A stretch of DNA of 64,000 bases from Candidatus Woesearchaeota archaeon (GTDB taxonomy: Archaea; Nanobdellota; Nanobdellia; SCGC-AAA011-G17; JACPIM01): contig CAZELK010000004.1 in NCBI GenBank assembly GCA_964513145.1, positions 6,961 to 70,960 of the forward strand, in the 5' to 3' direction. Shown here one piece after another: positions 43,993 through 45,441 of the stretch. The notes beneath the pieces were generated by a model. The model was given only the letters and a program-made list of their open reading frames with translations. It made no database searches and was not told the origin of the DNA. The translations under genes and the position numbers were made by a program. Each line of letters starts with the position of its first letter. The stretch's first letter is position 1.

Positions 43993-44484
43993 TTATATTT
44001 TTAATTTCTTCTTGTTTTTTGGATAATTTCTCTTTTCATATTCCAGTAATTTCTTTTTTAAAAAAACCACTTCAACAGAATTATAATTTGGAGTAAAGTC
44101 GCCTTTTCTATTAAATTGTTCTAGGCAGTGTTTTATTTCTTCAATATCAGCTAAATCTAGTTCTTCATCATTCCATAAACAAACTAATCTGTCTTCTGGA
44201 TAAAAATATTTGAAATAATCATCATTAAAATGACCGCATTCAGCACAATACAAATTCAAACCAACTTCTCTTATCCAGAATTGCGGTTCTCTTTCTTTCC
44301 CCATAACTTTGAATTCTCTTTTTTCTTCTTCAATTATTCCCCAGACAATTTCAAGATAAAATAATGGCGATTTACAATAAGAACATAGTACTGGATTATC
44401 TTGTTGTGCTAAACTCCATCTTCTAGTAGATTTTATACTATCTGCAATTAGTACTGATTTGTTTATTCTTTCAACTTCGTTCAT
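43993..44484 (-). CDS. Hypothetical zinc-binding protein
   Basis: CSYC and CAEC; ATG at 44484 preferred over the track start at 44514. Confidence 0.6.
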   Translation of the reverse strand: MNEVERINKSVLIADSIKSTRRWSLAQQDNPVLCSYCKSPLFYLEIVWGIIEEEKREFKVMGKEREPQFWIREVGLNLYCAECGHFNDDYFKYFYPEDRLVCLWNDEELDLADIEEIKHCLEQFNRKGDFTPNYNSVEVVFLKKKLLEYEKRNYPKNKKKLKI

Positions 44485-44492
44485 TTTATTGT

Positions 44493-44699
44493 AATTGCCG
44501 ATAGTGAAACGCACTTGTAATTTGAGCTTTGAATTTTGAGCCTTGACTATGGTTATGATAAGCTTTGAACTTTGGTCTTTTAGCCCACCAGCCCTGTCAT
44601 GGGAACAAAATGATTTACTTTATTCGGATGTAGACTCAAAACAAAATAAATCAAAGCACTATCTCGAACTATCGGCAACTTATCTATTTGATAGATAAG
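44493..44699 (-). ncRNA. Putative structured non-coding RNA downstream of DIP1984-family gene
   Basis: Perfect 9-bp hairpin 44679-44699; ttgccgatagt/actatcggcaa closing stem (44495-44505/44668-44678); 10-bp inner stem (44534-44543/44632-44641); 7-nt periodic repeats. Confidence 0.6.
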
Positions 44700-44713
44700 C
44701 AAAAATTTGGCAG

Positions 44714-45172
44714 CTAAATTAATAATTCCGCAGTCCAATTAGTTATTTGTATTTTATTATCTAAATTTGTTTTTTCTACTTGTAATTTCTCGATTTCTTC
44801 TTCTATTTTTTTCTCTTCAATTAATGGGTGTTTGTCTACATCATTTTTTTCTCTAAATAAGTAATCTCTTTTTCTCTCAAATAAATTGCCCATATCTGAA
44901 ATCCTTGCTCTTAGATCGCTTATTTTTAATATTGCTTCTGCTACTGTAATATCACCATCAATAAGTCTTATGCCTAAATTAGTTTTTTGAATCTTTAATT
45001 TTAATTGCTTAATTTCTTCTGTTTTTTCATTAATTTGTTTAGTTAAATCCCTTATATCGAATGGTGGTTTTTTCTTAGTTTCAATGTAGAAGTTTTCTTT
45101 TCTTAAATTTACTAACCTAGATAATCTTGCTTTTTCTTTTTTCAACAATGACAATGCTTCACCTAATTTCAT
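44714..45172 (-). CDS. DIP1984-family coiled-coil protein
   Basis: MKLGEAL... N-terminus, TVAEAI, LDNKIQITNWTAEL C-terminus. Confidence 0.8.
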   Translation of the reverse strand: MKLGEALSLLKKEKARLSRLVNLRKENFYIETKKKPPFDIRDLTKQINEKTEEIKQLKLKIQKTNLGIRLIDGDITVAEAILKISDLRARISDMGNLFERKRDYLFREKNDVDKHPLIEEKKIEEEIEKLQVEKTNLDNKIQITNWTAELLI

Positions 45173-45231
45173 TTTAATTTTTAAAAACTAACTTATTTAA
45201 ATATTTATGACGTATGTTTTTGTGGGTGCAA

Positions 45232-45441
45232 CTACACTGATTTTTCTTTACCGTCCAAATAAGTTATAAAACATGTTCTATTATTCTCATCTTTAGCTAA
45301 ATAACTGAATAATAGCTTACCTTTTTGCAGACATGACCCTATTGCGACTAATTTGTTTATAGAAATACTAAATGTTGCTCTTTTTTGTGAAACTTTACAT
45401 TTCCAGCCGATATTATCAAAAATTATTTCCATCAAATACAT
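45232..45441 (-). CDS. Small hypothetical protein (AbrB-like swapped-hairpin possible)
   Basis: KVSQKRATFSISINK...LQKGKLLFSYL. Confidence 0.55.
   Translation of the reverse strand: MYLMEIIFDNIGWKCKVSQKRATFSISINKLVAIGSCLQKGKLLFSYLAKDENNRTCFITYLDGKEKSV

What the first reader, a model, noticed from the sequence alone, without database searches (positions are those of the whole stretch)
44514..44577. Strict 7-nt periodic repeats inside the putative RNA
Seen: five in-register heptamers on the + strand, cttgtaa-tttgagc-tttgaat-tttgagc-cttgact (44514-44548), then two more shifted by one base, tttgaac-tttggtc (44564-44577). On the transcribed strand this is a CAA every 7 nt. Inference: a ruler-like array of binding sites for repeated subunits of the adjacent coiled-coil protein (filament or ring assembly on RNA), or slippage-derived expansion.
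Basis: partly seen in the sequence, partly recalled or inferred. Interest (0 to 1): 0.65.

Follow-up and report, generated by a model that had tools for sequence, protein, structure and literature searches.

The report
Phased heptad array in DIP1984 RNA
The 7-base repeats are real and form the most conserved part of an undescribed folded RNA that follows a small gene of unknown function in tiny DPANN archaea; eight evenly spaced copies look like a docking rail for a repeated partner, probably a protein.

Summary
The heptamers are the window's slightly atypical copy of an eight-unit array with 7-nt phasing and consensus N-U-Y-A-A-R-G.

The array lies in a ~215-nt structured RNA on the minus strand (44490-44707), immediately 3' of a DIP1984/DUF6847 gene. 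All 33 DPANN homologous loci I fetched, plus two held-out ones, carry the same RNA.
- U at position 2 is kept in 98% of units and A at position 4 in 100%.
- The spacing is exactly 7 nt in 218 of 231 intervals.
- There are always eight units.

Two flanking stems (P1, P2) covary strongly, and P3 varies in a compensating way. The array shows no covarying helix. All length variation lies in units 2-4, and insertions occur only in unit 4.

Ongoing slippage is rejected. The unit count is fixed, and same-index units are more alike across loci than different units are within a locus.

Neither Rfam 15 nor the searched literature describes this RNA.

My best reading is inferred, not shown: a bipartite, phased, single-stranded landing pad for an oligomeric partner, most plausibly the DIP1984 protein encoded in cis. 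HutP and TRAP are the nearest analogues.

Ten bacterial DIP1984 loci also carry a trailing RNA, but show only weak or short period-7 signals.

The parts
44714..45172 (-). DIP1984/DUF6847 family gene, 152 aa
   Evidence: Pfam PF20935 E=1e-13. NCBIfam NF038048 scores 65.5 bits, just under its cutoff of 70. The AF2 model (pLDDT 87) matches PDB 3KDQ with TM 0.85 and nothing else. 120 DPANN relatives were listed, at 49-80% identity.
44490..44707 (-). Structured RNA trailing the DIP1984 gene (window copy of a new family, about 215 model positions)
   Evidence: Covariance model R1 scores 88.9 bits, E=1.5e-11, and this is its only hit in the 64-kb window. Single-sequence fold: -66.5 kcal/mol, z=-5.8. 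No Rfam 15 match.
44678..44700 (-). P1 hairpin (GCUUAUCUAU / AUAGAUAAG), starting 14 nt after the stop codon
   Evidence: Fold. In the family alignment 93.9% of cells pair and 6 of 9 pairs show compensatory changes.
44668..44678 (-). P2 closing stem, 5' strand (UUGCCGAUAGU)
   Evidence: all 13 pairs show compensatory changes and 93.4% of cells pair. G-U pairs fix the transcribed strand as the DIP1984 sense strand.
44495..44505 (-). P2 closing stem, 3' strand (ACUAUCGGCAA)
44654..44659 (-). P3, 5' strand (GUGCUU)
   Evidence: A per-sequence search finds a differing but complementary P3 in most family members, for example AGUAUAGG/CCUAUAUU, AGUGCAGG/CCUGCGCU and AAGCAUGGG/CCUGUGCUU.
44511..44516 (-).
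44520..44583 (-). Eight-unit heptad array N-U-Y-A-A-R-G (U1-U8); a ninth heptad-like unit extends it to 44513
   Evidence: Pooled over the family: U2 98%, A4 100%, G7 74%. Lag-7 autocorrelation is 0.55 against 0.28 in the rest of the RNA. RNAalifold leaves the array unpaired.
44551..44558 (-). 8-nt insertion (UCAUAACC) in the central unit U4, specific to the window's sublineage
   Evidence: Alignment columns 219-226 of A2 are filled by the window (two of them also by L029). L037 shares the insertion and L038 shares part of it. It accounts for the single 15-nt A4-to-A4 interval.
43993..44484 (-). Downstream 163-aa Cys-rich (CxxC...CxxC) ORF, whose ATG lies 10 nt after P2
   Evidence: Relatives occupy this position in only 6 loci. 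Other loci have different genes here, so it is not part of the constant module.
45232..45441 (-). 69-aa ORF upstream on the same strand; a frequent syntenic neighbour
   Evidence: tblastn finds relatives upstream of DIP1984 in 29 loci. No Pfam family matches.

Best explanation
SHOWN. The heptamers are the window's copy of an eight-unit array with 7-nt phasing and consensus N-U-Y-A-A-R-G. It is the most conserved part of a ~215-nt structured RNA encoded directly 3' of DIP1984/DUF6847 genes in DPANN archaea. The array sits between stems P3 and P2, which hold its two ends close together. It forms no helix supported by covariation. It is organised as two blocks, U1-U3 and U5-U8, around a centre (U4) that tolerates insertions.

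INFERRED. The array is a single-stranded, bipartite landing pad that presents one U-N-A...G determinant every 7 nt to a repeated or oligomeric partner. The most plausible partner is the DIP1984 protein encoded in cis, with one binding unit per heptad (8 = 2 x 4). The outcome would be either a stable ribonucleoprotein or feedback on the DIP1984 mRNA, of which this RNA is the 3' trailer. This is the same principle as HutP (XAG + 4-nt spacer, 3 + 3 sites) and TRAP.
For: - Array reality and rarity.
- Family-wide conservation in 33 loci: U2 98%, A4 100%, G7 74%; lag-7 and lag-14 autocorrelation 0.55/0.54 against 0.28.
- A4-to-A4 spacing is 7 nt in 218 of 231 intervals. It is 33/33 for U1-U2, U5-U6, U6-U7 and U7-U8. 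Length changes occur only in U2-U4, and insertions only in U4.
- Always eight units. Identity at the variable positions is 0.557 for same-index units across loci and 0.427 for different units within a locus.
- P1 and P2: 93.6% paired, 19 of 22 pairs compensatory, 0 of 500 shuffles reach the observed value. P3 varies in a compensating way.
- RNAalifold leaves the array unpaired on two alignments.
- The best candidate helix closing the array pairs in 82.1% of cells against 81.9% in shuffles, with no covariation.
- Single-sequence folds pair the array with different partners in different loci.
- Model R1 finds exactly one copy per locus, always just after DIP1984, including held-out L037 and L038. 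It finds none elsewhere in 322 kb.
- The stop codon abuts P1 in most loci, so co-transcription is likely.
- The HutP precedent for 7-nt phased triplets in two sites: PMC2425495.
Against: - No binding, expression or stoichiometry data exist. No RNA-seq run holds the locus.
- DIP1984 has no recognised RNA-binding fold (only 3KDQ matches).
- Its pI ranges from 5.4 to 9.6 in DPANN and from 5.5 to 7.8 in bacteria.
- Freeing the array costs a predicted 5-19 kcal/mol (window 15.7). In the window's lineage the 3' half can pair with a U-rich 5' segment.
- U2 and A4 are invariant, so covariation cannot exclude a non-canonical self-structure.
- Strict phasing is clear only in DPANN. Of ten bacterial DIP1984 trailers, two reach a marginal lag-7 signal.
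Confidence: 0.45

Rival explanations
1. RNA-only architecture. The heptads build a repetitive non-canonical fold. One option is that each invariant U-N-A forms a U-turn. Another is that U1-U4 zip antiparallel onto U5-U8, with U2:A4' and A4:U2' pairs separated by purine-purine mismatches. The array would then be a scaffold or rigid rod of the RNA rather than a protein rail.
For: - In the register i+j=449, all invariant U2 and A4 columns face each other (195:254, 197:252, 202:247 and 204:245 pair in 94-100% of sequences).
- Insertions occur only in U4, the would-be apex.
- Single-sequence folds often pair the array internally.
Against: - Any array of U-N-A spaced by 7 nt satisfies that register automatically.
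- No covariation supports any helix.
- U2 is 6 nt long in 10 loci, with no compensating change in U7.
- Two A-U pairs per seven nucleotides would be very unstable by nearest-neighbour rules.
Confidence: 0.2
2. The array is a docking or sponge site for a partner other than DIP1984. Candidates are another RNA-binding protein of the cell, or a nucleic acid bound in trans. DIP1984 would act on or with that complex, or simply share the transcript.
For: - The phasing and conservation arguments apply as above.
- DIP1984 shows no known RNA-binding features and a variable pI.
- One of the bacterial DIP1984-plus-RNA loci lies next to the RNA-repair gene rtcB, which hints at RNA-metabolism partners.
Against: - The only constant neighbour of the RNA is DIP1984.
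- Downstream genes differ between loci.
- The 69-aa upstream gene is frequent (found in 29 loci) but is separated from DIP1984 by other genes in many loci.
Confidence: 0.2
3. The element is a cis-regulatory leader for the gene downstream of the RNA, for example through protein-dependent termination or read-through. On this reading it is not a partner of DIP1984.
For: - A same-strand ORF starts within about 10-40 nt of P2 in many loci.
- A T-run of four or more follows the RNA in 17 of 34 loci and is absent in the window, where the next ATG is 10 nt away.
Against: - The downstream genes belong to at least four unrelated families, and some loci have none nearby.
- The RNA begins at the DIP1984 stop codon, and it is missing from L033, where the 3' part of DIP1984 is deleted.
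Confidence: 0.08
4. The array is a heptanucleotide microsatellite produced by replication slippage, with no function of its own.
For: Pure (GATTAAA)n and (GATTAAC)n microsatellites do exist in unrelated metagenome contigs.
Against: - All 33 loci have eight units although the proteins are only 50-58% identical.
- Units are individually recognisable across loci: U1 is CUUAAAG and U8 is CUCAUAU.
- Same-index identity across loci is 0.557, against 0.427 between different units within a locus.
- Tandem Repeats Finder reports nothing in the window copy.
Confidence: 0.02

Closest known systems
HutP binding sites in the Bacillus subtilis hut terminator RNA (PMC2425495)
   Same: Short motifs are repeated with a fixed 4-nt spacer, giving a 7-nt period. 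They are arranged as two blocks separated by a linker. Each block is read by one face of an oligomeric protein, and recognition is by primary sequence of single-stranded RNA.
   Different: - The motif is XAG rather than U-N-A...G, and the layout is 3+3 units rather than about 4+4.
- HutP sites lie in a 5' leader that overlaps a terminator; this array lies in a 3' trailer clamped by covarying stems.
- HutP is an alpha/beta hexamer, whereas DIP1984 is a four-helix bundle with no fold match to it.
- No ligand or antitermination logic is evident here.
TRAP and the 11 (G/U)AG repeats of the trp leader (my own knowledge; also mentioned in PMC2425495)
   Same: A phased array of triplets wraps around a ring-shaped oligomer, with one triplet per subunit.
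   Different: Spacers are 2-3 nt, giving a period of about 5, with 11 units. The site is a 5' leader, and the protein fold and biology are unrelated.
Structured RNAs trailing bacterial and phage DIP1984-family genes
   Same: - They occupy the same position, immediately 3' of a DUF6847 gene.
- A long-range closing stem covaries (GCGA-NNNN ... NNNN-UGR).
- A gene-free trailer of 269-735 nt was present in all ten bacterial loci I examined.
- In three loci, four or five heptads of the form xxxAAxG lie just 5' of the closing strand.
   Different: - The DPANN covariance model does not detect them, and the DPANN heptad matrix is not enriched in them.
- A lag-7 signal is marginal in two of ten loci and absent in the rest.
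- The bacterial RNAs carry a tRNA-T-arm-like hairpin and a GGUGAGGGUGGG box that the DPANN RNA lacks.
Multi-site sponge RNAs (CsrB/RsmZ type) and type III antitoxin repeat RNAs (ToxI) (my own knowledge)
   Same: Several copies of a short protein-binding determinant lie on one RNA.
   Different: CsrB-type sites are GGA motifs in hairpin loops at irregular spacing. ToxI repeats are about 36 nt long, near-identical, upstream of the toxin gene and cleaved by it. No defence-system model matched the proteins here beyond a weak PDC-S66 hit at E=0.0067.

Membership tests
Any Rfam 15 RNA family | Score at or above a family's gathering threshold | tested here: not met
   There were no matches in the whole window. 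Only chance-level hits with E above 5 appeared in 44300-45300. No family matched the RNA in L001, L002, L013 or L015.
DPANN DIP1984-trailing RNA (family defined here, model R1) | P1 hairpin, covarying P2 closing stem, eight-unit heptad array, position directly 3' of a DUF6847 gene | tested here: met
   The window scores 88.9 bits over the full model length. All four features are present. Held-out L037 and L038 score 81-84 bits.
HutP/TRAP-type phased triplet arrays | Short motif repeated at a fixed spacing in single-stranded RNA | tested here: met
   Spacing is 7 nt in 218 of 231 intervals, and no helix is supported by covariation.
HutP/TRAP-type phased triplet arrays | Cognate protein of the HutP or TRAP fold | tested here: not met
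   Foldseek matches the DIP1984 model only to 3KDQ. Pfam gives only DUF6847.
HutP/TRAP-type phased triplet arrays | Location in a 5' leader overlapping a terminator/antiterminator | tested here: not met
   The array lies 3' of the gene, inside stems P2 and P3.
HutP/TRAP-type phased triplet arrays | Demonstrated protein binding with one subunit per repeat | not testable with these tools
   This needs EMSA, footprinting or a structure.
Slippage microsatellite | Near-identical units and copy-number variation among relatives | tested here: not met
   All 33 loci have eight units. Same-index identity across loci exceeds identity between units within a locus. TRF finds nothing.
Type III toxin-antitoxin repeat RNA | Tandem, near-identical repeats of about 34-36 nt upstream of an endoribonuclease toxin gene | tested here: not met
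   The unit is 7 nt and lies downstream of the gene. PADLOC gives no ToxN/AbiE-type hit.
DIP1984 / DUF6847 protein family (the adjacent gene) | Match to PF20935 / NF038048 and the 3KDQ fold | tested here: met
   PF20935 E=1e-13, above its cutoff. NF038048 scores 65.5 bits against a cutoff of 70. TM-score to 3KDQ is 0.85.

The most novel reading that the evidence does not exclude
DIP1984/DUF6847 proteins and the RNA encoded just 3' of them form a previously unrecognised ribonucleoprotein found in DPANN archaea and, in a diverged form, in many bacterial phyla. In the DPANN version the RNA carries a molecular ruler: two blocks of four heptads, each with a U-N-A...G determinant. The ruler would set the number and register of bound protomers (eight, or two tetramers). 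That would make it a sequence-programmed protein-on-RNA assembly with no described counterpart in archaea.
Probability: 0.3. Interest if true: 0.85.

Novelty: new variant of a known kind. Interest (0 to 1): 0.7.

Why it matters
DUF6847 is a large family with a solved structure (3KDQ) and no known function. One search here returned more than 4,500 bacterial relatives, and it is near-ubiquitous in the Woese-/Pacearchaeota-like loci sampled. On Acinetobacter plasmids it is still sometimes annotated as 'septicolysin'.

A strictly conserved, phased RNA array beside the gene gives the first concrete, testable handle on what the family does: it predicts an RNA-binding or RNA-guided assembly.

The array's regularity makes clean experiments possible, because unit number, spacing and the U/A invariants can each be changed independently. 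It also adds a structured RNA family to DPANN archaea, whose non-coding RNA repertoire is almost unexplored.

Tried and rejected
1. Rfam at gathering and permissive thresholds found nothing.

2. Tandem Repeats Finder gave no rows on the window copy, because the units are too divergent.

3. I tested a helix closing the array (GUGA box plus U1 against U7/U8). It pairs in 82% of cells, the same as shuffled columns, with no covariation. A scan of all registers gave only the periodic matches expected from the repeats themselves.

4. A pattern scan of metagenome contigs for TTAAAGATTAN{1,3}GATTAARGAT was meant to test whether arrays occur away from DIP1984. None of the 80 loci has a DIP1984 gene or a strong model hit. 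The exclusivity test is therefore inconclusive beyond the 322 kb.

5. A scan of viral contigs for DPANN-type DIP1984 found none.

6. The DPANN model and heptad matrix found no significant signal in bacterial and T5 trailers. Profile comparison of T5.085 with the DPANN family was not significant: probability 1%, although the alignment fell on the family's best motif.

7. I considered and set aside an anticodon-loop mimicry reading of the heptads. Only the U at position 2 and the purine at position 6 fit, position 7 is G, and no stems flank the units.

8. I considered coding potential of the array. UAA or UCA words give stops in most homologues, and there is no conserved frame.

9. No RNA sequencing runs hold the locus; only groundwater DNA metagenomes do.

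The window's own genome and its relatives could not be searched as whole genomes.

Full report
**1. The observation**

The + strand at 44514-44548 reads CTTGTAA TTTGAGC TTTGAAT TTTGAGC CTTGACT. At 44564-44577 it reads TTTGAAC TTTGGTC, exactly as described. The window is 28% G+C. Even so, a run of five in-register YTTG words is the only run of four or more, for any period from 3 to 15, on either strand of the 64 kb. Base composition gives an expectation of about 7e-6.

**2. Where it lies**

The heptamers lie on the minus strand in the 229-nt gap between two ORFs. One is a 152-aa ORF (44714-45172) and the other is a Cys-rich ORF whose ATG is at 44484.

The 152-aa protein is a DIP1984/DUF6847 family member:
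- Pfam PF20935 E=1e-13.
- NCBIfam NF038048 65.5 bits.
- AlphaFold2 model with pLDDT 87, matching only PDB 3KDQ, TM 0.85.

The model is a compact bundle of four helices with a small beta bridge, not a long coiled coil. The gap folds far better than shuffles (-66.5 kcal/mol, z=-5.8). It matches no Rfam 15 family.

**3. Related loci**

A protein search found more than 120 relatives at 49-80% identity, named Woesearchaeota, Pacearchaeota or Nanoarchaeota where named at all. A scan of one genome per species returned 33 DPANN loci and three bacterial ones.

In every DPANN locus with an intact gene, the ~200-250 nt after the stop codon hold the same element:
- a hairpin GCUUAUCU...AGAUAAG (P1) that usually abuts the stop codon;
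- a long-range closing stem (P2);
- a second stem (P3);
- a variable middle of one or two hairpins;
- a GAUGUGAUG box;
- the heptamers;
- CUCAUAU-ACCUAUA.

The MAFFT alignment A2 (33 sequences) shows the heptamer region to be the best conserved part.

P1 and P2 pair in 93.6% of cells. Nineteen of 22 pairs show changes on both sides, and none of 500 column shuffles reaches the observed values. Slid controls pair in 30-49%. All 13 P2 pairs are compensatory. P3 differs in sequence but stays complementary, for example AGUAUAGG/CCUAUAUU, AGUGCAGG/CCUGCGCU and AAGCAUGGG/CCUGUGCUU. Frequent G-U pairs place the RNA on the DIP1984 sense strand.

A covariance model built from A2 (R1) finds exactly one copy per locus, always just after DIP1984. 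It recovers two loci not used to build it (L037 and L038, 81-84 bits). It finds nothing else in the window or in 322 kb of flanks. The one locus without the RNA, L033, has DIP1984 truncated after 58 codons.

**4. Anatomy of the array**

There are eight units with consensus N-U-Y-A-A-R-G. Pooled over 8 x 33 units:
- position 2 is U in 98%;
- position 4 is A in 100%;
- position 3 is a pyrimidine in 90%;
- position 7 is G in 74%.

Autocorrelation is 0.55 at lag 7 and 0.54 at lag 14, against 0.28 elsewhere in the RNA.

The distance between successive invariant A's is 7 nt in 218 of 231 intervals. By interval:

| Interval | Spacing across 33 loci |
|---|---|
| U1-U2, U5-U6, U6-U7, U7-U8 | 7 nt in all 33 |
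| U2-U3 | 6 nt in ten loci, 7 nt in 23 |
| U3-U4 | 6 nt in one locus |
| U4-U5 | 9 nt in one locus, 15 nt in the window |

All 33 loci have eight units. U4 is also the least conserved unit. The array therefore reads as two blocks (U1-U3 and U5-U8) around a tolerant centre.

The window's copy is the outlier. It has an 8-nt insertion in U4 (44551-44558), shared by its closest relative L037 and partly by L038. The window uses C at position 3 (UCAAAG instead of UUAAAG), which gives "CAA every 7 nt". It has a rare C at position 2 of U2, and a ninth heptad-like unit that runs into P3.

**5. Paired or not?**

RNAalifold leaves the array unpaired on both the MAFFT alignment and the model-based alignment. 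The best candidate helix pairs the GUGA box and U1 with U7/U8. It pairs in 82.1% of cells against 81.9% in shuffles, and where it varies it breaks rather than compensates. A scan of all registers shows only the periodic U/A coincidences that any such repeat produces.

Single-sequence folds do pair about half of the array, but with different partners in different loci. Forcing it open costs 5-19 kcal/mol (mean 11.7, window 15.7). In the window lineage the 3' half can pair with a U-rich 5' segment. That segment can alternatively form its own hairpin, as in the rest of the family. The array is therefore conserved as primary sequence with strict spacing. That is the signature of a recognition site rather than a Watson-Crick helix. 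A non-canonical self-structure cannot be excluded, because the invariant positions cannot covary.

**6. Slippage**

At the five variable positions, same-index units from different loci are 55.7% identical. Different units within one locus are 42.7% identical, the same as different units between loci (42.3%). The count is fixed at eight although the proteins have diverged to 50-58% identity. The array is old and is maintained unit by unit. Ongoing slippage is rejected. True (GATTAAA)n microsatellites exist in unrelated metagenome contigs and look quite different: identical units and no DIP1984 gene.

**7. Mechanism (inferred)**

The nearest precedent is HutP. It reads XAG motifs separated by 4-nt spacers (period 7), three on each face of a hexamer, with the two sites joined by a 12-17-nt linker (PMC2425495). 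TRAP works on the same principle.

By analogy, I propose that stems P2 and P3 present the array as a bipartite rail. Each heptad would offer U2, A4 and G7 to one binding unit of an oligomer. The only constant neighbour of the RNA is DIP1984, so it is the most plausible partner. The 3KDQ entry holds four chains, which makes 2 x 4 an attractive but unproven count.

Because P1 abuts the stop codon, the RNA is probably the 3' trailer of the DIP1984 mRNA. Binding could therefore feed back on the message, or it could build a stable RNP.

Points against:
- there is no RNA-binding fold or motif in the protein;
- the pI is variable;
- there are no expression data.

I put 0.45 on this whole statement. 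I put about 0.9 on the shown part: a conserved, selected, phased array in a new RNA family.

**8. Beyond DPANN**

All ten bacterial DIP1984 loci I examined have 269-735 nt of gene-free DNA after the gene. They come from Oscillospiraceae, Erysipelotrichaceae, an Acinetobacter plasmid, a Picosynechococcus plasmid, an Enterococcus plasmid, Kamptonema, Blastocatellia, Brevibacillus, Ktedonobacterales and Chloroflexota.

These trailers share several features:
- conserved sequence boxes;
- a covarying closing stem (GCGA-NNNN ... NNNN-UGR);
- in the loci, a tRNA-T-arm-like hairpin (GGGUUCRAAUCC core);
- a GGUGAGGGUGGG box.

RtcB is the next gene in one locus.

The DPANN model does not detect them, and the DPANN heptad matrix is not enriched in them. 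A lag-7 signal is marginal in two of ten (2/300 and 10/300 shuffles) and absent in the rest. Three loci do show four or five heptads of the form xxxAAxG directly 5' of the closing strand, for example AGCAAAG UGACAAG CGUAAAG GGUAAUG UCAAAGU in L164. Strict 8 x 7 phasing is therefore a DPANN property. A shorter, looser version may exist in bacteria.

Earlier notes of this scan describe the bacterial and phage RNAs. I used them only as leads.

In phage T5, the 360 nt after T5.085 hold UYAAAG-like words at mixed 7/8-nt spacing. This is not significant by my test. The homology of T5.085 to the DPANN family was also not significant by hhalign.

**9. Novelty and limits**

Nothing on DIP1984/DUF6847 RNA partners was found in 8.4 million papers and preprints. 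'Septicolysin' is a legacy name for the family on Acinetobacter plasmids.

The principle, a phased recognition array, is known. This RNA, its protein partner candidate and its 3'-trailer architecture are not. I therefore class it as a new variant of a known kind.

Noticed in passing
An earlier first-reader note describes a tRNA-Glu next to a hicBA islet.
   Followed up: no
window 45232-45441 (-): A 69-aa ORF with no Pfam match has relatives upstream of DIP1984, on the same strand, in 29 DPANN loci. In some it is directly adjacent; in others about 1 kb of other genes intervene.
   Followed up: partly
L034-L036, L039-L041, L163-L167 (downstream of the DIP1984 genes): Bacterial DIP1984 genes from at least six phyla are followed by 269-735 nt of gene-free, partly conserved sequence. 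It has a covarying closing stem and, in several loci, a tRNA-T-arm-like hairpin and a GGUGAGGGUGGG box. Rfam has no match in the three loci I scanned. RtcB follows in L164.
   Followed up: partly
L164 about 1370-1410, L163, L165: Four or five heptads of the form xxxAAxG (AGCAAAG UGACAAG CGUAAAG GGUAAUG UCAAAGU) lie just 5' of the ACUACC closing strand of the bacterial RNA. This may be a shorter counterpart of the DPANN array.
   Followed up: partly
L055 4780-4936, L069 1170-1320, L083 780-930, L086, L095, L116: Pure (GATTAAA)n / (GATTAAC)n heptanucleotide microsatellites occur in unrelated metagenome contigs with no DIP1984 gene. Some lie just upstream of ORF starts.
   Followed up: no
L033 3001-3177: DIP1984 is truncated after 58 codons and followed by an unrelated 225-aa ORF. 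The trailing RNA is absent. This looks like a deletion that removed the 3' part of the gene and the RNA together.
   Followed up: partly
L019 and L024: Two contigs of the same Nanoarchaeota MAG each carry a complete DIP1984-plus-RNA module. This means either two paralogous modules or two strains in one bin.
   Followed up: no
L042 13143-13505 (-) (phage T5, downstream of T5.085): A 360-nt gene-free stretch holds a run of UYAAAG-like words (UUCAAAG AUCAACA UUUAAGU AUGAAAG CUGAAAAG UUUAAAG ...) at mixed 7/8-nt spacing. T5.085 aligns with the DPANN DIP1984 profile only on the K.N...VAEAI motif, and not significantly.
   Followed up: partly
window 43993-44484 (-) and equivalent positions in other loci: The ORF that follows the RNA differs between loci but is often a small Cys-rich (CxxC) protein. 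Examples begin MKNKCLKCYGFGWW, NVKCRNCLNKFW and TIRYKIVNGKKRxLCDY.
   Followed up: no
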